30,891 bases of DNA from Actinomycetota bacterium (GCA_046724155.1 JBKOWA010000243.1:1-30891), one strand, 5' to 3'. Numbered from the stretch's first letter, positions 1-29,388 are shown. Notes: a model not told the origin generated them from the sequence alone. Program-made: numbers and translations.

Positions 1-116
1 GGCTGACGGTGCGGTCGAAGGAGGCTACGGCACCGACGCCGGGCACTTCGGGCGACGCTGCTGTTGACCGTTCCCAATCAGGTGCGTACACGTGGCCATC
101 CTTGAACACTGACCGG

Positions 117-887
117 GTGGATCAACGTCAGGGGATCGTGCGGTTGGTCAACGAGGCCATCGGGTCGAAGGCCCTGGGCAGCTACCTGCACGGATCTGCC
201 GTACGCGGCGGGCTCAAGCCCGCCAGCGATGTGGACGTCCTGGTCGTCACTCGGCAGGGCATGGACGATCGGGAACGGCGCGCGCTCGTCGACGGGCTCC
301 TCCCGATCTCCGGCCCACGGGTCGGTGCGCGGTCGATCGAGCTCACCGTCGTGGTCCAGTCCGAGGTCCGGCCCTGGCGGTACCCACCGACCGCCGACTT
401 CCGGTACGGCGACTGGCTACGCGAACAGATCGAGGCCAACGGTCCCCCGCAGCCGGCGCCGATGCCCGACCTGGCCATCGTGATCGCCCTGGCGCTGGCC
501 GGTGACCGCCCACTCGACGGCCCTCCACCGGCCGAACTCCTCGACCCGGTTCCGCCCGCCGACGTGCTCCGCGCAAGCCTGGCCGGCATCCCGGACCTGC
601 TCCATGACCTGCCCGGTGACACCCGCAACGTCGTGCTGACCCTCACCCGCATCTGGACCACGCTCGCCACCGGCGAGATCCGGTCCAAGGATGCCGCCGC
701 CGACTGGGCCCTCGCGCAGCTCCCGCCCGAACACCGAGCGGTCCTCGCGCACGCCCGGCAGCTGTACCTCACCCGGCGGTACACCGAGGAGACCTGGACG
801 GACGAACTCAAGGCGCAGGTCCGTCCGCACGTGGATGTGGTCCTCACCGAAATCCACAAGCTGGCCGTCAAGGAGAACTACAGGTAG
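117..887 (+). CDS. aadA: Aminoglycoside adenylyltransferase, AadA/ANT(3'')/ANT(9) family (nucleotidyltransferase + DUF4111-type C-terminus)
   Basis: Motif YLHGSAVRGGLKPASDVDVLVV (GS..D.D), RSIELTVV, DFRYGDWLR, DTRNVVLTLTRIWTTLATGEIRSKDAAADW. The ORF is open from 9, but GTG at 117 gives a length typical of the family. Confidence 0.85.
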   Translation: MDQRQGIVRLVNEAIGSKALGSYLHGSAVRGGLKPASDVDVLVVTRQGMDDRERRALVDGLLPISGPRVGARSIELTVVVQSEVRPWRYPPTADFRYGDWLREQIEANGPPQPAPMPDLAIVIALALAGDRPLDGPPPAELLDPVPPADVLRASLAGIPDLLHDLPGDTRNVVLTLTRIWTTLATGEIRSKDAAADWALAQLPPEHRAVLAHARQLYLTRRYTEETWTDELKAQVRPHVDVVLTEIHKLAVKENYR

Positions 888-3673: not shown

Positions 3674-4758
3674 ACCGGGCCTTCACTTCGTCCGGCGATG
3701 TCACCGAGACGTACGCCGTCGGGCTGCTGCGCGGGATGCTGGAGATCCCTTCCTCGTCCTACCAGGAGCGCGCGCTGGCCGACTTCCTGGCCGAGGCGAT
3801 GGCGGACCTGGGGTTCCGGGCGCACATCGACGTGGTGGGCAACGTCATCGGCGTGATCGAACGCGGCGACGGCCCGACACTGATGCTGCTGGGGCACCTG
3901 GACACCATCCCGGGCCAGCTCCCGGTCCGCTCCGAGGACGGCAGGCTCTACGGCCGCGGCGCGGTGGACGCGAAGGGACCGCTCGCGGCGATGATCTGCG
4001 CCGCGGCCAGCGCGGTGGACTTCCCCGGCCGGATCGTGGTGATCGGCGTCGTGGAGGAGGAGACCCCGCGCTCCCGTGGGGCGATGGCGATCCGAGCCAC
4101 CCATGACCGGCCGGACGCGCTGATCGTCGGCGAACCGAGCGGCTGGTCGAGCGTGGTGCTCGGCTACAAGGGCAAGCTCGACCTGCGCTACACCGTCAAG
4201 TGCCCTGCCACCCACCCGAGCAACCCGGCGCCGAAGGCGTCCGAACTGGCCGTCGGCTGCTGGGCCGCGCTGGTCGACCTGCTCGGGCCGGACGCCGGCC
4301 ACGACGTGTTCGCCCGGCCGGGCGCGACGCTCTGCCGGCTCAACGCCGATCTGACCTCGGCGACGGCGGACCTCAGCGTCCGCACCCCACCGGGATTCGA
4401 CGTCGACACGCTGGTGCGCAGGCTGCGTGACCGCCTGCCGGTCGGCGAACTCGAAGTGCTGAACTCGGTGGCGGCCTGCCGGGTGGGCCGGGCCGACCCG
4501 GCGGTCCGCGCGCTGGTGTCCGGTATCCGGCGGCTGCACGCCCACCCCCGGCTGCTGGTGAAGACAGCCACCTCGGACATGAACACCCTCGCCGAGGTCT
4601 GGGACATGCCGATGGCGACCTACGGCCCAGGCGACAGCAGGCTCGATCACGCCGACACCGAGCACATCATGCTGTCGGACTACCTGCGAGGCATCGACGT
4701 GCTGTCCATTGCCGTCTCGGAGCTCGCGCCCTGCCCGCCCGCTCGGACAACCGGGTGA
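3670..4758 (+). CDS. lysK: LysK/ArgE-like M20 hydrolase (releases product from LysW)
   Basis: LLGHLDT, LYGRGAVDAKGP, VEEE, IVGEPSG, YGPGDSRLDH. ATGA overlap with the lysX stop. Confidence 0.88.
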   Translation: MNRAFTSSGDVTETYAVGLLRGMLEIPSSSYQERALADFLAEAMADLGFRAHIDVVGNVIGVIERGDGPTLMLLGHLDTIPGQLPVRSEDGRLYGRGAVDAKGPLAAMICAAASAVDFPGRIVVIGVVEEETPRSRGAMAIRATHDRPDALIVGEPSGWSSVVLGYKGKLDLRYTVKCPATHPSNPAPKASELAVGCWAALVDLLGPDAGHDVFARPGATLCRLNADLTSATADLSVRTPPGFDVDTLVRRLRDRLPVGELEVLNSVAACRVGRADPAVRALVSGIRRLHAHPRLLVKTATSDMNTLAEVWDMPMATYGPGDSRLDHADTEHIMLSDYLRGIDVLSIAVSELAPCPPARTTG

Positions 4759-4790: not shown

Positions 4791-7700
4791 ATGACCGACA
4801 TGACCCAGCGCCTCGCCGCGTTACCCGCGGAGCGCCGTGCGCAGTTCCTCGCGCAGCTGAGGGCGCAGGCGGAGGACGCGGCCGGACAAGGCCCGACGCC
4901 ACGCGGGGACACCGGTCCGGCACCGCTGTCGCACGCGCAGGAGACCTTGTGGTTCCTCAACCGCCTGGCGCCGGACAGTCCCACCGACAACGTGCCCTGG
5001 TGCACCCGGCTGCAGGGTGACCTGGACGTGAGCGCGTTGCGTTCGGCGCTGGCCGCGGTCGTGGCCAGGCACGAGGCGCTGCGGACCGCGATCGTGGCGC
5101 GCGAGGACGGCCCGGTGCAGGTGGTCGCCCCCGAGGTCCCGGTCGAGCTGCCGCTGGTCGAGGTGGCCGGTGACGACGACGAGCAGCGGCTCGCCGCCGC
5201 GCGGGCGCTCGTCGACGAACGGGTCAGAGCACCGTTCAACCTCGGCAGGATGCCGATGTGGCGCGCGGTGTTGGTCAGGGTGGCGCCGGACGACCACCTG
5301 TTCCTGTTCGACGCGCACCACATCGCGTTCGACGACTGGTCGCTCGGTGTGCTGACCGGCGAGCTGGCCGAGGTCTACCGGTCGCTGCGCGACGGCGACG
5401 AACCGCAGCTGCCCGATCTTCCGGTGCAGTACCCGGACTACGCGGTGTGGCAGCGCGACCGGCTCGACAACGGCGAGCTGGACAAGCTGGCCACGCACTG
5501 GCGGGACACGCTGGCGGGCGCCGAGGTGCTGGAGTTCCCGACCGACCGGCCACGTGGCGACGCGCAGACCTTCGCCGGCGGCGTCGGCAGTTTCACGGTC
5601 GGTCACGAGGGCCTGGAGCGGGCGAGGGAGCTGGCCCGAGAGGAGGGCACGACCCCGTTCGTCGTCCTCGTCGCCGCGTTCTTCACCCTGCTGCACCGCT
5701 ACTGCGGCCTGGACGACCTGGTGATCGGCTCGCCGGACGCGAACCGGCGGCACGACGCCGTGTCATCGATGTTCGGATTCTTCGTCAACATGATGGTGTT
5801 GCGCGGGGACGTCTCCGGCGACCCGACCTTCCGCGAGCTGGTCCAGCGGGTCAGGCGCGTGGCGCTGGACGCGCACGCGCACGGCGACCTGCCGTTCAAC
5901 AAGCTGGTCGACGCCGTGAACCCGACCCGCGACCCCGCACGCTCACCGGTCTTCCAGATCGTGTTCGCCCAGCAGGACGCGGGTACCACGACCGGCCTGC
6001 CCGGACTCGTGACGTCGGAGGAGGCGGTCCGGGTCGGCACCTCCCGGTTCGACATGAGCTGGAACGTGCAGGGGGCAACGGCTCCCGGCGCCGACGCGCT
6101 GCTGGGCATCGACGGGCTGCTGGGCACCGACGCGCTGCTGGGCATCGACGGGCTGCTGGGCATCGAGTTCAACACCGACCTGTTCGACGGCGAGAGCATC
6201 GCCAGGTTCGCCCGGCACTACGACGGACTGCTGCGCACCCTGACCGCCGACCCGGACGCCCCGTTGTCCGCCGCGGACGTGCTGAGCCCGGCGGACAGGG
6301 AGTTCCTCGCCGAGGTCAGCAGCGGGCCGGCGCGGCCGGTACGCGAAACCACTGTCGTGGAACAGTTCGAGGCGCGCGTCGAGGAGTCTCCGGACAGCGT
6401 GGCGGTCGTCGTCGAGGACATCGAGACCAGCTACGCCGAGCTCAACGCCCGGGCGAACCGGCTCGCAGCCCTGCTGCGCGAGCGCGGCGCCGAGCCGGGC
6501 ACGAGGATCGGCCTCTGCCTGCGCAGGAACGTGGACCTGCCGGCAGCGATGCTCGCGGTGCTCAAGACCGGCGCGGCCTACGTGCCACTCGACCCGGCGC
6601 ATCCCCCCGCGCGGGTCGCGGAGATCGCCGCCGACGCGGGTGTACGCGCGGTGGTCGCGCACGCCGACGTCGCCGGGACCGTGAGCGCGGTCACCGCGCC
6701 CGTCGTGGTGCTGGACGACATCCGCGCGGAACTGGCGGCGATGCCCGCCCCAAACCCCCCGCTCGCCGCGAAACCCGGCGGCGTCGCGTACATCATCTAC
6801 ACCTCCGGCAGCACCGGCAGGCCGAAGGGTGTACTGCTCGAACATCGCGGCGTGGTCAACTTCGCCGACTCCACGCGGGACCTGTTCGACCTGACACCGG
6901 ACGACCGGGTGCTCGGGTTCGCGTCGGTCACCTTCGACGTCTCGGTGTTCGAGACGTTCTCCGCGTTGCTGACCGGGGCACGCCTGTGCCTGGCGACCGA
7001 CGACGAACGGCTGTCCATCGACCGGCTCCAGTCGCTGATGGAACGAGCCGGCATCACCGTCATCGACCTGCCGCCGACCGTGATGCCGTTGCTGACGCCG
7101 GAGAGGTTCACCGACCTGCGGATCGCGTTCGTCGGCGGTGAGGCGTTCAGCGGCGAACTGGTGAACCGGTGGAACCGAGGCAGGCGGCTGTTCAACGGCT
7201 ACGGGCCGACCGAGTGCACGGTGACGATGATCGTCGAGGAGTGCGCGGGCACCTGGGACGCCTCGCCGCCGATCGGCCTGCCCATGGCCAACCACGTCGC
7301 GCACGTGCTGGACCGCGAGTTCCGCCAGGTGCCGGTCGGCGTGCCGGGCGAACTGGTGATCGGTGGTGCCGGGCTGGCGCGCGGTTACCTCAACCGCGCC
7401 GAGCTGACCGCGGAGAAGTTCGTCACCGACCCGTTCGGCACCGCGCCGGGCGGGCGGTTGTACCGGACCGGAGACCTGGTGAAGCGGCTGCCGGACGGGC
7501 GGCTGGTCTTCCTCGGCCGGCTCGACCAGCAGGTCAAGATCCGCGGCCTGCGGATCGAGCTGGGCGAGGTGGAGTCGGCGTTGGCCGGCGTCGCCGGAAT
7601 CGGGCCGGTCAGCGTGCAGCCGTGGACCGACGACGCCGGTGACAAGCACCTGGTCGGCTACCTGACGGGCGTCACCGAGCAGCAGGTGCCGGCGGTGCGC

Positions 7701-8177
7701 GAGCATCTCGGCACGCTCCTGCCGTCGTACATGATCCCGTCGTACTTCGTTGTCCTCGACGAACTTCCGCTCACCAGCAGCGGCAAGGTCGACTGGCGCA
7801 GGCTGCCCGCGCCGGACCCGAGCTCGGCGGGCGACGGGTCAGGCGGCGAACCGCGTACCGCGACCGAACGGGTGCTGCTGCGCGAAGTGCTCACCCCGCT
7901 GCTGCGCTACGACCGGCTCGGCGTGCACGACGACTTCTTCCAGGCCGGCGGCAACAGTCTCCAGGCCGCTCAGCTGATGTCGGCGATCAACCGCAGGTTC
8001 GAGGTGGAGATCGCGCTCGCCGACTTCTTCGTCGCACCCACCGTCGCGCACCTGGCCACCATCATCGACACCGTCCGCGCCGCGCGACTCAGTGACGACG
8101 ACCTGCTCGACATGCTGGAGAGCATGTCCGACGAGGAGGCGGTCCGGATGTTCGACGACCTGGACGGCCGGTCATGA
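4791..8177 (+). CDS. Single-module NRPS, C-A-T
   Basis: C domain with LSHAQETLWF, RHEALRT, HHIAFDD (5316-5336). A domain with YIIYTSGSTGRPKG, FDVS, NGYGPTE, GELVIGGAGLARGY, LYRTGDL, QVKIRGLRIELGEVE. T domain FFQAGGNSL (Ser 7956-7958). GAAAGGAG RBS before ATG 4791. Confidence 0.95.
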   Translation: MTDMTQRLAALPAERRAQFLAQLRAQAEDAAGQGPTPRGDTGPAPLSHAQETLWFLNRLAPDSPTDNVPWCTRLQGDLDVSALRSALAAVVARHEALRTAIVAREDGPVQVVAPEVPVELPLVEVAGDDDEQRLAAARALVDERVRAPFNLGRMPMWRAVLVRVAPDDHLFLFDAHHIAFDDWSLGVLTGELAEVYRSLRDGDEPQLPDLPVQYPDYAVWQRDRLDNGELDKLATHWRDTLAGAEVLEFPTDRPRGDAQTFAGGVGSFTVGHEGLERARELAREEGTTPFVVLVAAFFTLLHRYCGLDDLVIGSPDANRRHDAVSSMFGFFVNMMVLRGDVSGDPTFRELVQRVRRVALDAHAHGDLPFNKLVDAVNPTRDPARSPVFQIVFAQQDAGTTTGLPGLVTSEEAVRVGTSRFDMSWNVQGATAPGADALLGIDGLLGTDALLGIDGLLGIEFNTDLFDGESIARFARHYDGLLRTLTADPDAPLSAADVLSPADREFLAEVSSGPARPVRETTVVEQFEARVEESPDSVAVVVEDIETSYAELNARANRLAALLRERGAEPGTRIGLCLRRNVDLPAAMLAVLKTGAAYVPLDPAHPPARVAEIAADAGVRAVVAHADVAGTVSAVTAPVVVLDDIRAELAAMPAPNPPLAAKPGGVAYIIYTSGSTGRPKGVLLEHRGVVNFADSTRDLFDLTPDDRVLGFASVTFDVSVFETFSALLTGARLCLATDDERLSIDRLQSLMERAGITVIDLPPTVMPLLTPERFTDLRIAFVGGEAFSGELVNRWNRGRRLFNGYGPTECTVTMIVEECAGTWDASPPIGLPMANHVAHVLDREFRQVPVGVPGELVIGGAGLARGYLNRAELTAEKFVTDPFGTAPGGRLYRTGDLVKRLPDGRLVFLGRLDQQVKIRGLRIELGEVESALAGVAGIGPVSVQPWTDDAGDKHLVGYLTGVTEQQVPAVREHLGTLLPSYMIPSYFVVLDELPLTSSGKVDWRRLPAPDPSSAGDGSGGEPRTATERVLLREVLTPLLRYDRLGVHDDFFQAGGNSLQAAQLMSAINRRFEVEIALADFFVAPTVAHLATIIDTVRAARLSDDDLLDMLESMSDEEAVRMFDDLDGRS
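6093..6164 (+). repeat. In-frame 4 x 18-nt tandem repeat inside the NRPS C domain
   Basis: GACGCGCTGCTGGGCATC GACGGGCTGCTGGGCACC GACGCGCTGCTGGGCATC GACGGGCTGCTGGGCATC, encoding DALLGI DGLLGT DALLGI DGLLGI. Confidence 0.95.
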
Positions 8178-9070
8178 GCTTCCCGCTGGGGGACCGGGCG
8201 GGCAAGCTGACCGGGCCGCGCCGGGCGCTGCTCGAACGGCTGCTCGCGGACCGTCGCTCGGCCGCCGCGACGACGGACGCGACGGATGGCGGCCGGGCAC
8301 CGGTGCTGATGCGACCACCCGGCCCGGCGCGGGTGATCCTGGTGCACCCGTCAGGCGGTGAGCTGTTCTGCTACATACCGTTGGTCAGGGCGCTGCGCGA
8401 GGGCATCGGTGTGGCCGGGTTCGCCGCCGACCCACGGGATGCCGCCGTGCCTGCCCGGGACGGTATGACGGCGACTGCCACCAGGATCGCGCAGGCACTG
8501 ACCGCGACCGGCTTACCGGAGTCGTACTGCCTGGCCGGCTGGTCCTACGGGGGCGTGCTCGCCTTCGAGATCGCCAGGCAGCTGGAGCGGGATACCGGAC
8601 AACGGCCGCCGGTGGTGCTGCTGGACGCCTCCTACGACGAGGACGCCGTCCCGCTCGACGAGCCGACGGTGCGGCGGCGGTTCGTGCACGACGTCGCCAG
8701 GCTGGCCGGCCGGGACGGTCCGCCGGTGCGCGCGGTGCTGGACGACCGGGCCGCCGGCCTGGTCGACATCAGGGAGACGCTGGCGTCGCTCGAGGTCGAG
8801 CTGGAGCTGAGCGACGACGAGCTGGCCGGCCGCTACGCCGTCTTCCGGGCCTGCGCGCTGGCGTTGCAGTCGTACCGCCCGCCGGGCCCGTACGGCGGGC
8901 CGGTCACCCTGCTGGCCGTCCCGCCCCGCGCCGCCGTGGAAGGGCAGTGGCGGGCGGTGTGCACGGGCCCGTTCCGGAGCGACGACCTGCCCGGCGACCA
9001 CTACACGCTTTTCACCGAACCGGCGTTGAGCCGGATCGTCGCCGAGATCGAACGGACGCTCGCCCCCTGA
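8174..9070 (+). CDS. Stand-alone thioesterase with N-terminal extension
   Basis: LVHPSGG, LAGWSYGG (GxSxG), VVLLDA, PGDHYTL. ATGA overlap with the NRPS stop. Confidence 0.9.
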   Translation: MSFPLGDRAGKLTGPRRALLERLLADRRSAAATTDATDGGRAPVLMRPPGPARVILVHPSGGELFCYIPLVRALREGIGVAGFAADPRDAAVPARDGMTATATRIAQALTATGLPESYCLAGWSYGGVLAFEIARQLERDTGQRPPVVLLDASYDEDAVPLDEPTVRRRFVHDVARLAGRDGPPVRAVLDDRAAGLVDIRETLASLEVELELSDDELAGRYAVFRACALALQSYRPPGPYGGPVTLLAVPPRAAVEGQWRAVCTGPFRSDDLPGDHYTLFTEPALSRIVAEIERTLAP

Positions 9071-9080
9071 GGAGACGCAC

Positions 9081-10235
9081 ATGCGGTTCGGGTTCACCGA
9101 GGAACAACAACGGTTCCGGGCGGACGTGCGGCAGGCGCTGCGCTCCGCCGAGGTGCGTGCGGCGGTGGCGGACGCCACCGCCGCGGACGGCGTCGAGCCG
9201 GACGTGCGGCCGCTGTACCGCCTGCTCGGTGGGCTCGGGCTGCTCGCCGTGCACTGGCCCGCCGAGTTCGGCGGAGCAGGCCGCCCGCTCACCGATGCCG
9301 CGATCGTCGCCGAGGAACTGGTGCGCGCGGGAGTGCCGGACACGTTGCACGTCAACACCATCCAGATCGTCGGCCAGTTCCTGCTGATGGCGGGCAGCAC
9401 CGCGCAGAAGCGACGGCACCTGCCCGCGCTGGCGCACGGTGAGCGCTTCGCGTCGGTGCTCTACACCGAACCGGACGCGGGATCGGACCTCGGCGCGCTG
9501 CGGACCGTGGCCGAGCCGGACGGCGACGGCTACCGGATCACCGGCACGAAGGTGTTCAGCCTCAAGACCCGATTCGTCGATCTCGGGCTGTGCGCGGCCC
9601 GTACGACGCCGGAAGCCGGGAAGTACCAGGGGATCAGCCTGTTCCTGGTCGACCTGGGCGCCCCCGGCGTGACGGTGACGGTGATAGCCGGTGTCGGCGA
9701 CGAGCAGTTCCACCGGGTCGACCTCGACTCGGTGCCGGTGTCCGGCGACGACCTCTTCGGGCCGCGCGACCAGGGGTGGCCGCTGCTCAACCAGGCACTG
9801 GCCATCGAACGCACCGGCCTCGACTACTACCTCAAGGCAGAACACTGGCTGGAGGCCGCGCTGGAGGCACTGGTCGACCGCGGGCCGGACCGCCCGCCCG
9901 GCGCCTACCTCGAACAGATCGGCCGCTGGGACGGCGCGCTCACGGCCGACCACGCCCTCGCCTGGGAGGTGCTCACCGGACTCGCGGCCGACCGGGTCGA
10001 CCCGGTCGCGGCCGCCGTCGCCAAGTACCACAGCAGCGAGCTCGCCCAGAGCATCGCGGTGTGGGCCGCTGACATCCCCGGGCCCGAGCAGCGGGCGAAC
10101 CGCACCAGGGCGGCCGTGACACTGGACTCCGCCTACCGGGAGGCGCCGGGGCTCACGCTGTCGGCGGGAACCTCCGAGGTGATGCTGCAGATCATCGCCG
10201 CCGCGTTCGACTCCATCGGACAGGAGAAGCGCTGA
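9081..10235 (+). CDS. Acyl-CoA/acyl-carrier dehydrogenase, alpha subunit
   Basis: FTEEQQRFRADVR, WPAEFGG, LYTEPDAGSDLGALRT, ITGTKVFS, GWPLLNQALAIER, AGTSEV. GAGGAG RBS. Confidence 0.9.
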   Translation: MRFGFTEEQQRFRADVRQALRSAEVRAAVADATAADGVEPDVRPLYRLLGGLGLLAVHWPAEFGGAGRPLTDAAIVAEELVRAGVPDTLHVNTIQIVGQFLLMAGSTAQKRRHLPALAHGERFASVLYTEPDAGSDLGALRTVAEPDGDGYRITGTKVFSLKTRFVDLGLCAARTTPEAGKYQGISLFLVDLGAPGVTVTVIAGVGDEQFHRVDLDSVPVSGDDLFGPRDQGWPLLNQALAIERTGLDYYLKAEHWLEAALEALVDRGPDRPPGAYLEQIGRWDGALTADHALAWEVLTGLAADRVDPVAAAVAKYHSSELAQSIAVWAADIPGPEQRANRTRAAVTLDSAYREAPGLTLSAGTSEVMLQIIAAAFDSIGQEKR

Positions 10236-10236
10236 C

Positions 10237-11319
10237 GTGGACCCGACCCCCGATCCGCTCATCGTCCAGTTGCGCAGGGCGTTGCGTACGGCCCTCGCCC
10301 GGGTACCCGTGCGGTCGCAGGTGCACGGCGCGCCGGTGGCCGACGGAGCTTCCGGCCCCGCCCGGACCGTGCTCGACCAGCTGGGCGCGGCCGACTTCGA
10401 ACGACCCGCCTCCGCCGGCGGCCTCGACCTCGGCCTGACAGCCGGGGTGCTCGTCAGCGAGGAGCTCGGCCGCGCGGCATGCGGAAACCCTTACCGGGCC
10501 GACGCGATGGCAGCCGATGTGGGTTGCCCGGCAGGCGCGGCGCTGGCCGGACTGGAGGCACTGCCGGTCGGCAGCGGGGTCGCCGCGACACCGCGAGCGG
10601 GCGGCTGGGAGCTGACCGGCGCGGCCACGGTCGACGGCCCGGGACTCGGGCCGCTGCTGGTGGCCAGCAGGACAGGCGGCGATCCGGTGCTCGTCGCGGT
10701 GCCGCGCGGTGCGCCCGGCCGCAGTGTGGAGACCAGGTGCTGGCCGCCGGTCGTCCGGTTCGAGGCCACGCCGGTCACCGCAGTGGACGTGGTCGGGGAA
10801 CTGGACGACTCGCTTACCGGCCCGCTGGCGCGAGCGCGGCTCCGGCAGGCCGCCTACCTGCTGGGCATCGCCGACGGCGCGCACCAGGTCGCGGTGCGCT
10901 ACGCCGGTGTCCGGCGGCAGTTCGACACCAGGCTGCGTGACCTACCCGCAGTGGCCTTCCCGCTGGCACGTGCCGTGGTGGCGTTGCGCGCGACCAGGGC
11001 AGCGGTGTACCGGGGGGCCTGGCTGGTCGACTCCGGGCCCGGTCAGGCCGGCACCGCGCCGGTCGTGGCGCTGGCGATGGCCGCCGAGACCGCCCGCGAC
11101 GTGGTGCGGTTGTGCCTGCAGAGCTGCGGAGTGCGGGCGATGACGGCGGAGCTCGGTCTGCACCGGTACTTCCGGCTGGCCGCGGCCGAGTCCGTCCGGT
11201 ATGGCGAGCCGGCCGCGCTGTGGCGGCTGGCCGGCGCCGCCCGGCTCGACCTGGCCAGGCACACCGTCGCCGCCGACGACGGCACCGGACCTCCGGTCGT
11301 GGCGGCGGCCAGGCTCTAG
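10237..11319 (+). CDS. Acyl-CoA dehydrogenase-like protein, degenerate partner subunit
   Basis: LVSEELGRA, LRQAAYLLGIADGA, YAGVRRQFDTRLRDLPAVAFPLA, LQSCGVRAMTAE. Lacks the N-terminal TEP..GSD motif; starts 1 nt after the first ACAD stop. Confidence 0.8.
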   Translation: MDPTPDPLIVQLRRALRTALARVPVRSQVHGAPVADGASGPARTVLDQLGAADFERPASAGGLDLGLTAGVLVSEELGRAACGNPYRADAMAADVGCPAGAALAGLEALPVGSGVAATPRAGGWELTGAATVDGPGLGPLLVASRTGGDPVLVAVPRGAPGRSVETRCWPPVVRFEATPVTAVDVVGELDDSLTGPLARARLRQAAYLLGIADGAHQVAVRYAGVRRQFDTRLRDLPAVAFPLARAVVALRATRAAVYRGAWLVDSGPGQAGTAPVVALAMAAETARDVVRLCLQSCGVRAMTAELGLHRYFRLAAAESVRYGEPAALWRLAGAARLDLARHTVAADDGTGPPVVAAARL

Positions 11320-13492: not shown

Positions 13493-14518
13493 TCAGGTCC
13501 GGTCGTGCAGGAGGGTGGGTGGGATGGTGTCCCAGGTGCCGCCGGTGCGGCGGTAGGCGATGCCGGACAGCAGTTCCAGCACGACCCGGTTGGCCAGCGC
13601 GGCGGTGATGTCGGCGTGGTCGTACGGCGGGCTGACCTCGACGACGTCGGCGCCGACGACGGGCAGGGTGACCGCGATCCGGCGGACCGCGTCCAGCAGC
13701 TCGCGGGCGGTCAGGCCGCCGGGCTCGGGGGTGCCGGTGCCGGGCGCCGCGCCGGGGTCGGCGACGTCGATATCGACCGAGACGAACACCCCGTCGCAGT
13801 CGTCGGTGGCGATCGCGAACGCCTCGTCCAGGCAGGCCGGCAGACCGCGGCGGACGATCTCGTGCATCTCGAACGAGCGCATCCGCTGGGCGGCCATCCA
13901 GTCCAGGGTGGGCGGCTCGGGCCAGTACCCGCGCAGGCCGAGCTGGACGAACCGGTCTCCGCGGCAGGCGCCGGACTCGATCAGCCGGCGCATCGGCAGC
14001 CCGTGCCCGATCAGCGAGCCGAACTGGAACTCGCCGGTGTCGGCGTGCGCGTCGAAGTGCAGCACGCTGACCCGGCCCCAGCCGACCGCCCGGGCCACCC
14101 CGGTCACGTCCGGCCAGGTGATGGTGTGGTCCCCGCCGAGCACCACCGGCACCGCCCCGGCCGTGGCCACCTGCTGCACCGCCGCCTCCAGCCGGTCCAG
14201 CGGCAGCCGCCCCTCCACCCCCGGCATCGGCACGTCGCCGGCGTCGGCGACGCGCAGGTCGGCCAGCGGGTCCACGCGCAGCGCCAGGTGCGGCCGGGAC
14301 CCGTCGTGCGACAGGTAGTCCGCGGTCCGGATCGCCTGCGGCCCGAACCGGGCGCCGGCCCGGTACGACGCCCCCGCGTCGTAGGGCGCACCCAGGATCA
14401 CCGCGTCCAGCCCGGACAGCGCGGCCGGATCGGCCAGGTCGCAGCGCGGCACACCCAGGAACGTCACGTCCGGCCCGTACATCCCCCCGACACGCACCAC
14501 GCCGCGATCATCCCACAC
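13493..14518 (-). CDS. speB: Ureohydrolase (agmatinase/guanidinobutyrase/proclavaminate amidinohydrolase-like)
   Basis: GARFGPQAIR, GGDHTIT, HFDAHADT, SVDIDVADP, PGTGTPEPGG. Start uncertain (alternative ATG 14482). Confidence 0.88.
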   Translation of the reverse strand: MWDDRGVVRVGGMYGPDVTFLGVPRCDLADPAALSGLDAVILGAPYDAGASYRAGARFGPQAIRTADYLSHDGSRPHLALRVDPLADLRVADAGDVPMPGVEGRLPLDRLEAAVQQVATAGAVPVVLGGDHTITWPDVTGVARAVGWGRVSVLHFDAHADTGEFQFGSLIGHGLPMRRLIESGACRGDRFVQLGLRGYWPEPPTLDWMAAQRMRSFEMHEIVRRGLPACLDEAFAIATDDCDGVFVSVDIDVADPGAAPGTGTPEPGGLTARELLDAVRRIAVTLPVVGADVVEVSPPYDHADITAALANRVVLELLSGIAYRRTGGTWDTIPPTLLHDRT

Positions 14519-18321: not shown

Positions 18322-18411
18322 ATGCCTGCTCCGCAGAATGTCGGCGTGGTCGGCTCGTATGCGTCGATGCGGTTGCTCGCGGAAGAGCTGAAGGCGGGAG
18401 TCGCGGCATGA
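18322..18411 (+). CDS. 29-aa small ORF or gene remnant
   Basis: MPAPQNVGVVGSYASMRLLAEELKAGVAA*. AAGG just upstream; the stop overlaps the ATG of the next gene (ATGA). Confidence 0.3.
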   Translation: MPAPQNVGVVGSYASMRLLAEELKAGVAA

Positions 18412-19658
18412 CGATCTTGGAACTCGACGGCGCCGAACATGTCGTCATCGTCAACCGGTGGGCGGAGCGCTACGCGGACTTCTCGCGGTACGCCGACCAT
18501 CGGGCACATCGGGTCACCTATGTGAGCACAGCGGTGGGGCTGTCCGCCATCCCCGCCGAGGCCACCGAGGTGGTCACGGTGAAGGCCACCGACGACCTGG
18601 CGGAAGTGACCGCCGCGGTGGACGGCCTGGCGCGCCGTCACGGGGCTCCGGACCGTATTGTGGCGCTGAAGGAGGACGATCTCCTGGTCGGTGCCGCCCT
18701 GCGGGAGAAGTGGGAGGTGCCGGGCCCCCGGGTGGACCAGCTGCTGCCGTTCCGGGACAAGTTCCTGATGGCGACGCGGGTGGCCGAGGCAGGGGTGGCG
18801 GTGCCGGATTTCGCCCTGGTGCCCGACGCGCAGGCCGTGCGGGGGTTCGCCGAGCGCGCCGGCTGGCCGGTCATCGTCAAACCGACGGTCGGCAGTTCCA
18901 GCGCCGGCGTGGTCCGGCTCGACGGACCGGGTGACCTGAGCGGGCTCTCCTTCGACGAGGGCCCCCTGCTGGCACAGGTGTTCAACCCGCACCAGATCTA
19001 CCACGTGGACGGGGTCTTCACCGGAGAACGACTGTTGGTCGTGCGCGCCTCCCGGTACCTGAACAACTGCCTGGGATTCCGTGGCGGTGGGACTCTGGGC
19101 TCGGTGGAGGAGAGCGACCCGGAAATCACGGGGATTATCGCCGAGTTCACGCTGCGGGCCATGCGTGCACTGTCGGACCGGGCCCTGGTCTTTCATCTCG
19201 AAATGTTCCTGGACGTGGATACGGGTTCCTGTGCCTTCCTGGAGGTCGGCGCCCGGGCGGGCGGCGCGGAGATCCCGCTGCTCTGGCGGGAGGTCCACGG
19301 GCACGACCTGATGGAAACCGCGTTCCGGATTCAGATGGGCCTGCGGATCCGTGCGGAGGCCCCACGGATCGCGGACGAGGTCGGCGGCTGGCTGCTCGTT
19401 CCGGCGCCGGTGAACCGTCCCTGCCGGATCACCGAGATCACACCGATGGTGGGCCGGCAGCCGGGCCCTTACGCCGAGGTGTTGCTGAGGGTGGGAGAGG
19501 TCCTGCCCGATGCCGACTCGTACTACGAGCACGTCGGCGGCCGCTTCCGGTTCCGGGGGGAGTCCAGCCAGGCCGTGGAGGCGGCGATCCGCACGATCGC
19601 GGCCGATTTCCGGGTGAGCGCGGAACCCGTGAGCCTGGTGCGGCGAACACCGGAGTGA
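18408..19658 (+). CDS. ATP-grasp ligase 1 (L-amino-acid ligase-like)
   Basis: FRDKFLM, GWPVIVKPTVGSSSAGV, YHVDG, FHLEMF, FLEVGARAGG. Confidence 0.88.
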   Translation: MTILELDGAEHVVIVNRWAERYADFSRYADHRAHRVTYVSTAVGLSAIPAEATEVVTVKATDDLAEVTAAVDGLARRHGAPDRIVALKEDDLLVGAALREKWEVPGPRVDQLLPFRDKFLMATRVAEAGVAVPDFALVPDAQAVRGFAERAGWPVIVKPTVGSSSAGVVRLDGPGDLSGLSFDEGPLLAQVFNPHQIYHVDGVFTGERLLVVRASRYLNNCLGFRGGGTLGSVEESDPEITGIIAEFTLRAMRALSDRALVFHLEMFLDVDTGSCAFLEVGARAGGAEIPLLWREVHGHDLMETAFRIQMGLRIRAEAPRIADEVGGWLLVPAPVNRPCRITEITPMVGRQPGPYAEVLLRVGEVLPDADSYYEHVGGRFRFRGESSQAVEAAIRTIAADFRVSAEPVSLVRRTPE

Positions 19659-19729
19659 AGAGGATGGGCATGGAATACGAGACCACGCCGGCGACGCGCG
19701 GTACCTCGGGCGTCAATGGAGCGCCAGAA

Positions 19730-21025
19730 TCACCTGGCAGGGAACGTCTTTCCTTGTCGAGGGTTGTCGTCGTAGAGGTAGTCGCGTTCGATTTGCCGCA
19801 GCTTCTCGTAGTCGGCGCGAATCTCTTCCGGATCATCGGAGATGAGAAATATCCACCCCGGCTGGGTCGCGACATCGATCGTTCGCGGAAGCGGGTGCCC
19901 TTCCGGATGCGCCATGAGGGTATGGGCGTAGGACGGTAGCGCGCGGATGGCGGCCATCGTCTCGTGGGACGGGACCACGCCGTGGTCCCTCGGGTTGATC
20001 AGAGACACGTCACGTGGGTGCTGCAGCAGCTGGTACACGGTGGTTGGCAGGCGGTTGAACTCGTCCGGGTCCACCACGGCCAGCGTGAAGAGCTCTATCT
20101 GGTTGGTGCCGAAACAGCGCGTGTTGATCTCCGGAACCTGGCCACCGCCGAAGCGTGCGGCACACTCGACGAGCACCGGCCCGCCGGCGGTCAGCATGAC
20201 CTCGGTGTGGGCGGCCCAGTTGCGGATCTCCAGGGCGTCGAGCACCTGGTGAGTGTAGGACTCCAGCTTTTTGGCGACCGGGTCGTCCGGCGCCAGCGGC
20301 TCGTCGTAGTCGTAGATGATGTTGCCGCCGGCGAGCCGAATCTTGTAGTACCGCCAGATCTCGACGGTGTGATGCCTGCCGTCACGACTGACCGTGTTGA
20401 CGAAGTACTCTTCCCCGGCCAGGAACTCCTGCGCGAGCACCACCGTATTGGGCTTCCCGTGACGGTCGGTACTGGTCATGATCTTTTCGTGGACGGCGCG
20501 AACCTGCTCCGGAGACGAACATGCCGCGACGTTGTCCGTGCCGGAGCTGGCGACCGGTTTCAGGACGACCGGGTAGCCTGCGGTCGTCTCGGCCCACGCG
20601 ATGATGTCGTCGGCATCGGATGCGACTGTGGTGGCCGCGTGTGCCAGTCCGGCATCGCGCAGTGCCAGGACCATGTCATATTTGTTGCGTCGGGCCGTCG
20701 GTCGGCTCATCCCGTTGCCGGGAGTGTCGAGCTCGGCGGAGAGCTGGTCGGCCAGCTCGACGCCCGACTCCCCGGCGGCGATCACGTAGCTGACCCCACG
20801 CGCACGCAGCGCGGCCGCCGTGGCCACGACGTCACCGTCATGGCGGACATTGTCGACGAAACCATCGGGGATCGGCAGCCGAGCCAGGTGAACGTCGGGG
20901 CTCGGCGACTGGACGTGCACACACTCCACGTCGTGCCGGTGCAGCGCGGGCAGCAGGTGGCGCCCCATCGAGTACGCGTCGACCAACGCCGCTCGTGTCG
21001 TCTGCGCGCGAGAACTGGTTGGCAT
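19730..21025 (-). CDS. ATP-grasp ligase 2 (NikS/L-amino-acid ligase-like)
   Basis: LVDAYSMG, RRNKYDM, YPVVLKPVASSGTDNV, QEFLAGEEYFVN, AHTEVML, LVECAARFGGG. Confidence 0.88.
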   Translation of the reverse strand: MPTSSRAQTTRAALVDAYSMGRHLLPALHRHDVECVHVQSPSPDVHLARLPIPDGFVDNVRHDGDVVATAAALRARGVSYVIAAGESGVELADQLSAELDTPGNGMSRPTARRNKYDMVLALRDAGLAHAATTVASDADDIIAWAETTAGYPVVLKPVASSGTDNVAACSSPEQVRAVHEKIMTSTDRHGKPNTVVLAQEFLAGEEYFVNTVSRDGRHHTVEIWRYYKIRLAGGNIIYDYDEPLAPDDPVAKKLESYTHQVLDALEIRNWAAHTEVMLTAGGPVLVECAARFGGGQVPEINTRCFGTNQIELFTLAVVDPDEFNRLPTTVYQLLQHPRDVSLINPRDHGVVPSHETMAAIRALPSYAHTLMAHPEGHPLPRTIDVATQPGWIFLISDDPEEIRADYEKLRQIERDYLYDDNPRQGKTFPAR

Positions 21026-28200: not shown

Positions 28201-28450
28201 CTGGTCCGGGAATGGTGCGGTCTGACGGCCGCGCCCCGGTCCGCGGCTGCGCCGCCACCGCCGGTGCCCGCCGTAGGTGGCCGCCAGCACCACCGCCGGG
28301 CGCGCACCGGCCCGCACACCAGCTCGACCAGCCGGGATGGCCGGCTACGAAAACGCTTGAGGACTACCTGAGGCCCCGCCCCGAAATACCGGCGTCGGCA
28401 CGGCTGTTATGCGTTCGGCAGAGTCAACCGAGGCGGTAGGAGGGATGCGC

Positions 28451-28744
28451 ATGCGCATCATCAGGTGGAGGCTGCGGATGGCAGCTGCCCAGCGTGAGGT
28501 GTGGACGGCTACCCAGCTACGTAAGCTGCTGATCGACCGGGCCGGCCTGGAGATGTCCATCGCCTCGGTCTCCGCCCTCTTCAGCAAGGAGCCCAGTCAG
28601 GTCAAGCTGTCCACCTTGCGCGCCCTGTGCACCGCCCTGCAGTGCACCCCGAACGACCTGTTTGACTTCGACACCGGCGCCCACCCCGGAGCCGGCAGCG
28701 CGTTCGGCTACAGAGCCGGCTCGATGGAAAAAGTCGCAGCGTAG
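28451..28744 (+). CDS. Cro/C1-type (XRE) HTH protein of the kind found in actinobacterial integrase modules
   Basis: WRLRMAAAQREVWTATQLRKLL...SVSAL...VKLSTLRALCTALQCTPNDLF. GGAGGG RBS; ATG at 28445 or 28451. Confidence 0.8.
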   Translation: MRIIRWRLRMAAAQREVWTATQLRKLLIDRAGLEMSIASVSALFSKEPSQVKLSTLRALCTALQCTPNDLFDFDTGAHPGAGSAFGYRAGSMEKVAA

Positions 28745-28896
28745 CCGGAATACCCGACCCGGTGGCGGACCCCAGGTGCCGAATGTCACCTGCTGGACGG
28801 CCGGGAACGGCGACCGACTTTGCGGCTGCGCGCGGACAGAGTGCAACCCGGTGAACGTCCCCCGCACCCGCGCGGCATTACCGGAAACGCCTGTAA

Positions 28897-28923
28897 CCAC
28901 CCCCGCACCGGGGACGGGGGTGG
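28897..28923. terminator. Stem-loop between convergent xre and vapC genes
   Basis: CCACCCCCG-N9-CGGGGGTGG, a perfect 9-bp stem. Confidence 0.55.
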
Positions 28924-28983
28924 CGGACGGCGGGACACAAGCTCAGGCCCCGGCAGGCTCATACCGCCCGGGCTGTGATCCGG

Positions 28984-29388
28984 TCACGGTGTCTTGCCGG
29001 GGACGATGTGTCGGACGGTCGGCACGCGGCTGACCGCGCGGTCGAACGATACCACCGCGCCGATGCCGGATACCTCGGCGCTGGCGACGAGATACGCCTC
29101 GGCGAAGTCCAGCCGGTCGACCTCGTACACCTCCAGTGCACGCAGGAGCAGCGGCTCGTCCACCACCGTGACCGGTGGGAAGGCGAGCACTGCCCGGACC
29201 AGCTCGGCGACCCGGCCGCGGGGCACCTCGTAGAAGGACTCCAGCACGTATACCGTCTCGGCGACGATCAGGTCCGCGAGGAGCAGTTCGTCGGCCGCGG
29301 CGAGGAACGCCGTGGCCTGCCGGGCCTGTTTCGGCGGGTCGCCGGTGAGATGCCTGATCAGGATGTTGGTATCGACGAATGCGCTCAC
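28984..29388 (-). CDS. vapC: PIN-domain VapC toxin
   Basis: AFVDTNILIR, IVAETVYVL, LDFAEAYLVA, VVSFDR. GTGA overlap with the antitoxin stop. Confidence 0.9.
   Translation of the reverse strand: MSAFVDTNILIRHLTGDPPKQARQATAFLAAADELLLADLIVAETVYVLESFYEVPRGRVAELVRAVLAFPPVTVVDEPLLLRALEVYEVDRLDFAEAYLVASAEVSGIGAVVSFDRAVSRVPTVRHIVPGKTP

What the first reader, a model, noticed from the sequence alone, without database searches (positions are those of the whole stretch)
4791..6250. NRPS condensation domain with no donor module in the cluster
The only NRPS has an intact-looking C domain (HHIAFDD; His kept, terminal Gly changed to Asp) and an N-terminal docking-like helix (QRLAALPAERRAQFLAQLR). No other A-T module or free carrier protein is encoded in the interval. 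In vazabitide and ficellomycin an N-terminal valine precedes the azabicycle. Here the C domain may be vestigial, accept a donor in trans, or scaffold on-carrier dehydrogenation and ring closure.
Basis: partly seen in the sequence, partly recalled or inferred. Interest (0 to 1): 0.66.

Follow-up and report, generated by a model that had tools for sequence, protein, structure and literature searches.

The report
Leftover condensation domain in ficellomycin-type NRPS
The peptide-bond-forming domain at the front of this cluster's only NRPS is real and well folded, but comparison with about 125 relatives suggests it is an evolutionary leftover that no longer needs a partner module; ATP-grasp ligases in the cluster probably add the N-terminal amino acid instead.

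Summary
The window encodes one NRPS, C-A-T at 4791-8177, with a separate TE. Its full-length LCL-type C domain carries HHIAFDD at 5316-5336. No other A, T or C domain lies in the 30.9-kb contig.

The cluster is a ficellomycin-type AmCP/DADH aziridine cluster. It is collinear with the Streptomyces ficellus locus, whose NRPS is 79% identical.

In 110 orthologues the A-domain specificity code (DVFDFGGVTK) is invariant and the T-domain serine is present. The C3 motif, however, is hypervariable: 87 of 110 lack the catalytic second His. These include S. ficellus (HRLVCDG) and the window's nearest neighbour on the tree (HPLAFDH). None of the 13 such loci examined has a donor module.

A sister clade of 15 proteins keeps an invariant canonical HHxxxDGWS motif (14 of 15 read HHIVFDGWS). 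All 6 of its loci examined carry extra carrier-containing NRPS parts next to the same core genes.

My reading is that the C domain is a catalytically redundant relic of a multimodular ancestor, kept for structural reasons. LAL-type ATP-grasp ligases are the likely capping enzymes. A trans donor or an X-domain-like recruiting role is not excluded. This is a new member of a known kind, of moderate interest.

The parts
4791..8177 (+). NRPS, C-A-T. The probable start is ATG 4791 (1128 aa); an upstream in-frame GTG at 4755 would give 1140 aa (P0001).
   Evidence: Pfam domains. Homologues begin MTDMTQRL. The database protein P0002 is 1128 aa.
4794..4883 (+). N-terminal docking-like helices (P0001 residues 14-21 and 25-43)
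   Evidence: Predicted as helices at pLDDT 64-77. The segment is conserved in both clades of the family: 17 of 43 positions are invariant in the donor-bearing clade, and the window differs at 2 of them.
4920..6308 (+). Condensation domain, LCL-like fold
   Evidence: PF00668 full length. AF2 model with pLDDT 83.9 and pTM 0.81. The best Foldseek matches are Txo2, TycC6, DhbF and FscG C domains, TM 0.75-0.78. The best PDB sequence hits are the same.
5316..5336 (+). C3 motif HHIAFDD (canonical form HHxxxDG)
   Evidence: The motif is hypervariable among orthologues.
6087..6166 (+). In-frame 18-bp tandem repeat (4.2 copies). It adds an 18-residue loop found in the window's protein only, apart from stray aligned residues in four sister-clade rows.
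   Evidence: TRF. Absent from the homologues shown. pLDDT is below 50 in the model.
6366..7787 (+). Adenylation domain with specificity code DVFDFGGVTK
   Evidence: Pfam. The code was read against GrsA landmarks and is identical in all 126 family members.
7878..8060 (+). Thiolation (PCP) domain with GGNSL
   Evidence: The Ser motif is conserved in 125 of 126.
8174..9070 (+). Thioesterase on its own ORF (ATGA overlap with the NRPS stop). It is fused to the NRPS in most orthologues.
   Evidence: Pfam PF00975. GWSYG motif. Homologues of about 1360 aa carry PF00975.
9081..11319 (+). Pair of acyl-CoA-dehydrogenase-family genes directly downstream of the TE
   Evidence: Pfam. They follow the NRPS/TE directly in 17 of the 19 family loci examined; L004 ends too early to show them and L038 lacks them. 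They are fused into one ORF in L016.
18408..19658 (+). ATP-grasp ligase similar to L-amino-acid ligase; candidate N-capping enzyme
   Evidence: PDB 4wd3 L-amino acid ligase, E 3.7e-14. Weak ATP-grasp Pfam hits.
19730..21025 (-). Second ATP-grasp_4 ligase; candidate N-capping enzyme
   Evidence: Pfam. Orthologues are present in L001 and L006.

Best explanation
The C domain is a genuine, fold-intact LCL-type condensation domain. It was inherited from a multimodular assembly line in which this C-A-T(-TE) unit was the last module. In the ficellomycin-type branch that includes the window, the upstream carrier modules are absent, and the catalytic centre of the C domain is no longer maintained by selection. 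The window's copy still reads HH...D but is drifting, so it most probably forms no peptide bond. Inferred steps follow. The A domain loads the cluster's own DADH-derived aziridinyl amino acid onto the T domain. The two ACADs and the TE process and release it. ATP-grasp L-amino-acid-ligase-type enzymes encoded in the cluster add the N-terminal residue or residues to the free amino acid. The C domain is probably kept because the C-A-T module needs it structurally.
For: (1) Cluster identity. LysW/X/Z/Y, split transketolase, DegT aminotransferase, M20 peptidase and sulfotransferase are present. So are AziU3/AziU2 homologues (E 7e-74 and 3e-53) and a StrB1-like amidinotransferase (E 4e-170). The locus is collinear with that of the genome carrying the S. 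ficellus NRPS QGV82499.1/ARF06222.1. (2) The A-domain code is identical in 126 of 126 sequences and the T-domain serine motif in 125 of 126. (3) The C3 motif is hypervariable in the donor-less clade. 87 of 110 lack the second His, with at least 17 state changes on an A-T tree. S. ficellus has HRLVCDG. The window's neighbour P0007 has HPLAFDH. (4) Eleven sites are invariant in the sister clade but below 50% consensus in the donor-less clade. All 11 lie in the C domain or the C-A linker and include His189, Gly194 and Trp195. None lies among the 193 invariant A-domain sites or the 41 invariant T-domain sites. The window differs from sister-clade invariants at 15 of 113 C sites, against 5 of 193 A sites and 0 of 41 T sites. 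(5) All 15 sister-clade proteins keep a canonical HHxxxDGWS motif (14 of 15 read HHIVFDGWS). All 6 loci examined there have extra carrier-containing NRPS parts: C-A-T modules including a Ser-code module, C plus C-T, A-T-C-A-T, or a free 82-aa PCP. (6) None of the 13 donor-less loci has another A, T or C domain that could serve this module. M92 has a separate neighbouring NRPS with its own TE. (7) A Pfam-confirmed LAL ligase lies in the S. ficellus cluster and in L015. ATP-grasp ligases lie in or next to 12 of the 13 donor-less loci (not resolved in L016 and M92). None was found within 10 kb in 4 of the sister-clade loci.
Against: This copy keeps both His residues and the Asp. Published work shows that the second His is not essential in every C domain, and that an HQxxxDM domain (ORF18) is active (PMC11546977). 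The domain has not been deleted or truncated in any of about 110 orthologues. 36% of its sites are at least 90% conserved and the N-terminal helix is conserved, so it does something. Overall NG86 dN/dS of C relative to A is raised in both clades, so the relaxation is site-specific rather than domain-wide. The split between donor-bearing and donor-less loci is a single split on the tree, so the 6-versus-13 contrast is not 19 independent observations. The window's genome is only 65% complete. I could not read the primary ficellomycin and vazabitide papers.
Confidence: 0.58

Rival explanations
1. X-domain-like or interface-domain-like role. The degenerate C domain is kept as a docking platform that presents the T-bound aziridinyl amino acid to the trans-acting ACAD pair or other tailoring enzymes. 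It might also help the aza-Michael ring closure.
For: The fold is fully retained: pTM 0.81, with teicoplanin X-domain structures among the Foldseek hits at TM 0.74-0.76. 36% of C-domain sites are at least 90% conserved in the donor-less clade. The S. ficellus motif HRxxxDG resembles the X-domain motif HRxxxDD (PMC11546977). ACAD genes follow the NRPS/TE in 17 of the 19 loci examined.
Against: The ACAD pair also accompanies the canonical, presumably condensing C domain in the sister clade, so ACAD action does not require a degenerate C domain. There is no excess of sites that gained constraint in C (14) relative to A (15). The domain sits N-terminal to A, unlike X domains. There is no interaction evidence.
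Confidence: 0.2
2. The window's C domain is still an active condensing enzyme. It takes an aminoacyl or acyl donor in trans, from an A-T or carrier protein encoded elsewhere in the unassembled 35% of the genome, or from an acyl-CoA or ACP.
For: Both His residues and the Asp are retained. The N-terminal docking-like helices are conserved. The genome is 65% complete, and other NRPS fragments exist on contigs C353, C484, C520, C98 and C319.
Against: The closest relatives have lost the His (P0007, P0005, P0013, P0014). The ficellomycin producer has H-R. No donor lies in 13 donor-less loci. The only stand-alone A-T with a Val/Ile-like code in S. ficellus sits inside another NRPS cluster 5.6 Mb away and has no orthologue above 47% identity in five other cluster-bearing genomes. 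The best structural and sequence matches are LCL elongation domains, not starter C domains.
Confidence: 0.12
3. The domain has no remaining role of any kind and is simply not yet deleted.
For: The catalytic motif is hypervariable. A unique 18-residue repeat insertion is tolerated in this copy.
Against: There is no truncation, frameshift or deletion in about 110 orthologues across several actinomycete genera. Many sites are conserved.
Confidence: 0.08

Closest known systems
NRPS of the Streptomyces ficellus ficellomycin-type cluster (QGV82499.1 / ARF06222.1)
   Same: 79% identical overall, and 89% in the A domain with an identical specificity code. The neighbours are the same: LysX, M20, TE, two ACADs, LuxR regulator, amidinotransferase, SDR, class-III aminotransferase, AziU3/U2, sulfotransferase and the AmCP genes. 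There is no second NRPS module within 60 kb.
   Different: In S. ficellus the TE is fused and the C3 motif is HRLVCDG. Its capping ligase is a Pfam-typical LAL, only 26% identical to the window's ATP-grasp_4 gene. The window has two different ATP-grasp ligases and an arginase-family gene not seen in the other donor-less loci examined.
Sister clade of metagenomic and Streptosporangiaceae clusters (P0101, P0105-P0120)
   Same: The core is the same in 5 of 6 loci: AmCP genes, DegT, transketolase, M20, C-A-T, TE, ACAD pair, LuxR and MFS. AziU3/U2 homologues are present in 5 of 6. The A-domain code is identical.
   Different: These loci carry extra carrier-containing NRPS parts that can donate to this C domain. 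They keep a canonical HHxxxDGWS motif. Four of the six were checked for SDR, aminotransferase, amidinotransferase and ATP-grasp capping genes, and these were not found within 10 kb.
Glycopeptide NRPS X domain
   Same: A C-fold domain with a degenerate catalytic motif (HRxxxDD) that is retained for a non-condensing purpose (PMC11546977). X-domain structures are among the Foldseek hits.
   Different: The X domain sits between the last T and the TE and recruits P450s. Here the domain is N-terminal to A, still reads HH in this copy, and no recruited partner is shown.
Vazabitide A (vzb) and azinomycin (azi) AmCP/DADH aziridine pathways
   Same: DADH is built on an amino-group carrier protein and the aziridine forms by sulfation plus an AziU3/U2-type enzyme (PMC11726168 and PMC9570651). 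Homologues of these genes are present here.
   Different: I could not obtain the vzb gene list. The amidinotransferase, SDR and aminotransferase trio here points to a guanidino (ficellomycin-like) product rather than a hydroxy (vazabitide-like) product.

Membership tests
NRPS condensation domain (PF00668), LCL type | Full-length match to the family profile | tested here: met
   Residues 56-518 match model positions 5-455 of 456, 300 bits against a cut-off of 30.6.
NRPS condensation domain (PF00668), LCL type | Two-lobed CAT-like V-shaped fold, closest to elongation C domains | tested here: met
   AF2 pLDDT 83.9 and pTM 0.81. Foldseek matches to Txo2, TycC6, DhbF and FscG at TM 0.75-0.78, E about 1e-44.
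NRPS condensation domain (PF00668), LCL type | Catalytic HHxxxDG motif | tested here: inconclusive
   The motif is HHIAFDD: both His and the Asp are kept, and Gly is replaced by Asp. The effect of Gly to Asp on activity is unknown.
NRPS condensation domain (PF00668), LCL type | Catalytic His maintained by selection among orthologues | tested here: not met
   87 of 110 orthologues in the donor-less clade lack it, with at least 17 state changes on the tree.
NRPS condensation domain (PF00668), LCL type | An upstream donor carrier domain is available in the assembly line | tested here: not met
   There is no second T, A or C on the contig, nor one serving this module in 12 further donor-less loci. 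The rest of the 65%-complete genome cannot be excluded.
Ficellomycin-type AmCP/DADH aziridine gene cluster | AmCP machinery (LysW, LysX, LysZ, LysY), split transketolase, DegT-type aminotransferase and M20 releasing peptidase | tested here: met
   Pfam hits.
Ficellomycin-type AmCP/DADH aziridine gene cluster | Sulfotransferase plus AziU3/AziU2-type aziridine synthase | tested here: met
   PF19798. PDB 7wuw AziU3 E 7e-74 and AziU2 E 3e-53.
Ficellomycin-type AmCP/DADH aziridine gene cluster | Guanidinylation set (SDR, aminotransferase, amidinotransferase) and collinearity with the S. ficellus locus | tested here: met
   tblastn map of the 60-kb S. ficellus region shows 77-90% identity gene by gene.
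Ficellomycin-type AmCP/DADH aziridine gene cluster | The product is ficellomycin or an analogue | not testable with these tools
   Chemistry is needed. The capping ligases differ from the one in S. ficellus.
Glycopeptide-type X domain | Degenerate HRxxxDD motif, position between the last T and the TE, and recruitment of trans enzymes | tested here: not met
   The window has HH...DD and the domain is N-terminal to A. Recruitment is not testable here.
Starter (Cs) condensation domain | Closest similarity to acyl-accepting starter C domains | tested here: not met
   The best sequence and fold matches are LCL elongation domains. The CDA starter C domain scores only E about 5e-12.

The most novel reading that the evidence does not exclude
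The degenerate but strictly retained C domain has been repurposed, like a glycopeptide X domain. It would act as the platform on which the heteromeric ACAD pair desaturates the T-bound aziridinyl amino acid, and on which the aziridine nitrogen closes the 1-azabicyclo[3.1.0]hexane ring. This would be a new non-condensing function for a C domain placed at the N-terminus of a single-module NRPS.
Probability: 0.18. Interest if true: 0.7.

Novelty: new member of a known kind. Interest (0 to 1): 0.4.

Why it matters
This resolves an apparent paradox in genome mining, a C domain with nothing to condense. Ficellomycin-type clusters should not be read as incomplete dipeptide NRPSs. The peptide bond is probably made by an ATP-grasp ligase, which changes product prediction and engineering strategy.

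The family also offers a natural experiment. Sister clusters with and without upstream modules show which C-domain positions are held only by catalysis and donor use, and which are held by the fold. That information is useful for NRPS engineering and for recognising pseudo-C domains.

Tried and rejected
(1) Primary papers on vazabitide (10.1038/nchembio.2181) and ficellomycin (10.1007/s00253-017-8465-4) are not held. Reviews gave only pathway outlines. I therefore cannot say what those authors proposed for the valine step.

(2) Pairwise NG86 dN/dS gave C 0.58 against A 0.24 in the donor-less clade, and C 0.65 against A 0.39 in the sister clade. dS is compressed by GC3 of about 90%, and the C domain is faster in both clades. 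I rejected this as evidence for clade-specific relaxation and used site-specific contrasts instead.

(3) A class-wide genome sample found the NRPS in only 2 of 400 other genomes (3 of 401 with the window's own), too few for a systematic survey. Protein-database homologues and their contigs were used instead.

(4) A search for an orphan donor in the complete S. ficellus genome found a 662-aa A-T frame with code DAFFVGGTFK. It lies within another NRPS cluster and has no orthologue in five other cluster-bearing genomes, so it was rejected as a conserved partner.

(5) My first extraction of A-domain codes used the longest frame and gave nonsense for several loci. I redid it with BLAST-selected frames.

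(6) The exact look-ups of the S. ficellus NRPS P0037 and of the L009 neighbour protein, and the genome-handle search for L009/L010, all failed.

(7) I looked for neofunctionalisation, meaning sites conserved only in the donor-less clade. Counts in C (14) and A (15) are alike, so there is no signal.

Full report
**What is there.** The window is a whole 30,891-bp contig (C14) of a 2.76-Mb, 65%-complete assembly. It has about 70% G+C.

ORF 4755/4791-8177 (+) encodes a C-A-T NRPS. Pfam assigns:
- Condensation, residues 56-518, a full-length match at 300 bits;
- AMP-binding, residues 538-879;
- AMP-binding_C, residues 938-1011;
- PP-binding, residues 1042-1102.

The C3 motif reads HHIAFDD at nt 5316-5336. 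The protein most likely starts at the ATG at 4791, as its homologues do (MTDMTQRL...).

The N-terminal 30 residues are predicted as two helices. A separate TE gene (8174-9070) overlaps the NRPS stop codon, and two ACAD-family genes follow it.

Six-frame searches of the contig with PF00668, PF00550 and PF00501 find no other C, T or A domain, and neither does tblastn with the three domains.

**What the cluster is.** The surrounding genes are:
- LysX-like ATP-grasp, M20 peptidase and sulfotransferase;
- LysZ, LysY and LysW;
- a split transketolase and a DegT aminotransferase;
- an SDR, a class-III aminotransferase and an MFS transporter;
- an AziU3/AziU2 pair (PDB 7wuw, E 7e-74 and 3e-53);
- a StrB1-like amidinotransferase (E 4e-170);
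- two ATP-grasp ligases, one of them similar to an L-amino-acid ligase (PDB 4wd3).

This is the amino-group-carrier-protein/DADH/aziridine chemistry described for vazabitide, ficellomycin and azinomycin (PMC11726168 and PMC9570651).

The NRPS is 79% identical to the protein NCBI names for Streptomyces ficellus (QGV82499.1 / ARF06222.1). I located that protein exactly in a 7,078,240-bp genome (G373). Its 60-kb neighbourhood is collinear with the window at 77-90% identity per gene, and it likewise has no second NRPS module.

**The family comparison.** I aligned 125 homologues at 60-91% identity. They split into two groups with 99% local support.

Group 1 has 110 proteins, including the window and S. 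ficellus.
- The A domain is 80-94% identical to the window, but the C domain only 55-91%.
- The 10-residue specificity code DVFDFGGVTK is identical in all 126 sequences of both groups, and the carrier serine motif in 125 of 126.
- The C3 motif is hypervariable. 87 of 110 lack the second, catalytic His; S. ficellus reads HRLVCDG and most Streptomyces read DVPxxVCDxxS.
- The window's neighbours read HPLAFDH (P0007), HQIAFDA (P0005) and HDIVCDD (P0013).
- At least 17 changes of state are needed on a tree built from the A-T region alone.

Group 2 has 15 proteins. They are more divergent from one another, yet all keep a canonical HHxxxDGWS motif and 14 of 15 read HHIVFDGWS.

**Gene context tracks this split.**

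All six group-2 loci examined carry extra carrier-containing NRPS parts beside the same core genes:

| Locus | Extra parts |
|---|---|
| L009, L010/L011, L017 | Two C-A-T modules, including one with the serine code DVWHLSLI(D/H)K |
| L018 | A C protein plus a C-T protein |
| L038 | An A-T-C-A-T protein |
| L039 | A free 82-residue PCP |

None of the 13 group-1 loci has another A, T or C domain that could serve this module. These are the window, L001-L008, L015, L016, S. ficellus and Streptomyces sp. M92. M92 does have a separate multimodular NRPS with its own TE about 7 kb away.

Group-1 loci instead carry ATP-grasp ligases.
- S. ficellus and L015 have a Pfam-typical L-amino-acid ligase (ATPgrasp_N, ATP-grasp_4, LAL_C2).
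- L003, L004, L005, L007 and L008 have a related gene 3-5 kb beyond lysZ.
- The window, L001, L002 and L006 have one or two other ATP-grasp ligases.
- L016 and M92 are not resolved.
- Four of the group-2 loci (L009, L010/L011, L017, L018) were checked and show none of these within 10 kb, nor the SDR, aminotransferase and amidinotransferase set.

**Where constraint was lost.**
- Eleven positions are invariant in group 2 but below 50% consensus in group 1. All 11 lie in the C domain or the C-A linker, and they include His189, Gly194 and Trp195 of the C3 motif. None is among the 193 invariant A-domain positions or the 41 invariant T-domain positions.
- Of the positions invariant in group 2, 92% in A but only 45% in C are at least 95% conserved in group 1.
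- The window itself differs from group-2 invariants at 15 of 113 C positions, 5 of 193 A positions and 0 of 41 T positions. S. ficellus differs at 26 of 113 and 4 of 193.

The domain is nevertheless not junk.
- No orthologue is truncated.
- 36% of C positions are at least 90% conserved in group 1.
- The modelled fold is a normal C domain, with pLDDT 83.9 and pTM 0.81. The closest structures are Txo2, TycC6, DhbF and FscG, with glycopeptide X domains a little lower.
- Crude dN/dS does not separate the clades, so I do not use it.

**Interpretation.** The C-A-T(-TE) unit looks like the terminal module of an ancestral multimodular line. In the ficellomycin-type branch the donor modules are gone and the catalytic centre is unconstrained.

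This holds even in the organism named as the ficellomycin producer, whose product is a valyl dipeptide. That structural statement comes from the finding and from my own recollection; I did not verify it here.

The most economical reading has four parts:
- the C domain no longer condenses;
- A-T, the ACADs and the TE process the cluster's own amino acid;
- an ATP-grasp ligase adds the N-terminal residue;
- the C domain persists for structural reasons.

All mechanistic steps after domain assignment are inferred. I give this reading 0.58.

The rivals are an X-domain-like recruiting role (0.20), a still-active C domain with a trans donor (0.12) and a completely functionless remnant (0.08). Three points count against dismissing activity:
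- this copy retains HH and the Asp;
- the second His is not essential in every C domain, and an HQxxxDM domain is active (PMC11546977);
- the genome is incomplete.

In the complete S. ficellus genome the only stand-alone A-T with a Val/Ile-like code (DAFFVGGTFK) lies inside another NRPS cluster 5.6 Mb away. It has no orthologue above 47% identity in five other cluster-bearing genomes. The window's own assembly holds only fragments of other multimodular NRPSs.

**Caveat on statistics.** The donor-bearing and donor-less sets are two clades, so the 6-versus-13 contrast is one evolutionary event, not 19 independent ones. The independent evidence is the repeated loss of the His within the donor-less clade, against none in the more divergent sister clade.

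**Verdict.** This is a new member of the known ficellomycin-type family, with a useful but moderate insight about a pseudo-condensation domain. Interest 0.4.

Noticed in passing
window 6087-6166: An 18-bp unit repeated 4.2 times in frame adds an 18-residue loop (…ALLGIDGLLGTD…) to the C-terminal lobe of the C domain. In the 125-protein alignment only the window's protein fills these columns, apart from stray aligned residues in four sister-clade rows. The loop is disordered in the model. It may be a recent slippage event or an assembly effect.
   Followed up: partly
window 8174-9070: The TE is a separate ORF overlapping the NRPS stop (ATGA). Most orthologues (about 1360 aa) have it fused, while a minority (about 1110 aa, including the closest relatives) are split in the same way.
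   Followed up: partly
window 13493-14518 (-): An arginase/ureohydrolase-family gene lies tail to tail with the amidinotransferase. It was not found in L001-L008, L015, L016 or the S. ficellus locus. A sister-clade locus (L038) has one next to its sulfotransferase.
   Followed up: partly
window 18408-21025: The window's two ATP-grasp ligases differ from the LAL ligase of the S. ficellus cluster; the ATP-grasp_4 gene is 26% identical to it. The N-terminal cap of this cluster's product may therefore differ from valine or comprise two residues.
   Followed up: partly
L016 14151-16397: In one close relative the two ACAD genes are fused into a single 748-residue ORF. This supports the idea that the two proteins work as one heteromeric unit.
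   Followed up: no
L039 1-1624; L038 1-2034 and 14229-15920: The sister-clade clusters are diverse. One has a free 82-aa PCP next to a LanB-N-terminal-like (Lant_dehydr_N) gene and lacks AziU2/U3 within 10 kb. Another has an A-T-C-A-T NRPS, no ACADs and no transketolase in range. These may make different DADH-derived peptides.
   Followed up: no
L022-L024 (Streptomyces sp. M92, G291:C1:1789000-1802500): A multimodular NRPS with its own TE lies about 7 kb from the LuxR gene of the AmCP cluster. The cluster's own C domain there lacks both His residues (DVPAVVCDASS). A homologue deposit names the protein 'non-ribosomal peptide synthetase 4'.
   Followed up: no
L015 1-38: A FemAB-like gene (weak Pfam hit) sits at the edge of the closest relative's cluster. 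Such enzymes can use aminoacyl-tRNA to add residues.
   Followed up: no
window 3-887 and 28409-29388: The cluster is flanked by an AadA-type nucleotidyltransferase gene on one side, and by an HTH gene plus a PIN-domain gene on the other. These probably mark the cluster boundaries.
   Followed up: no
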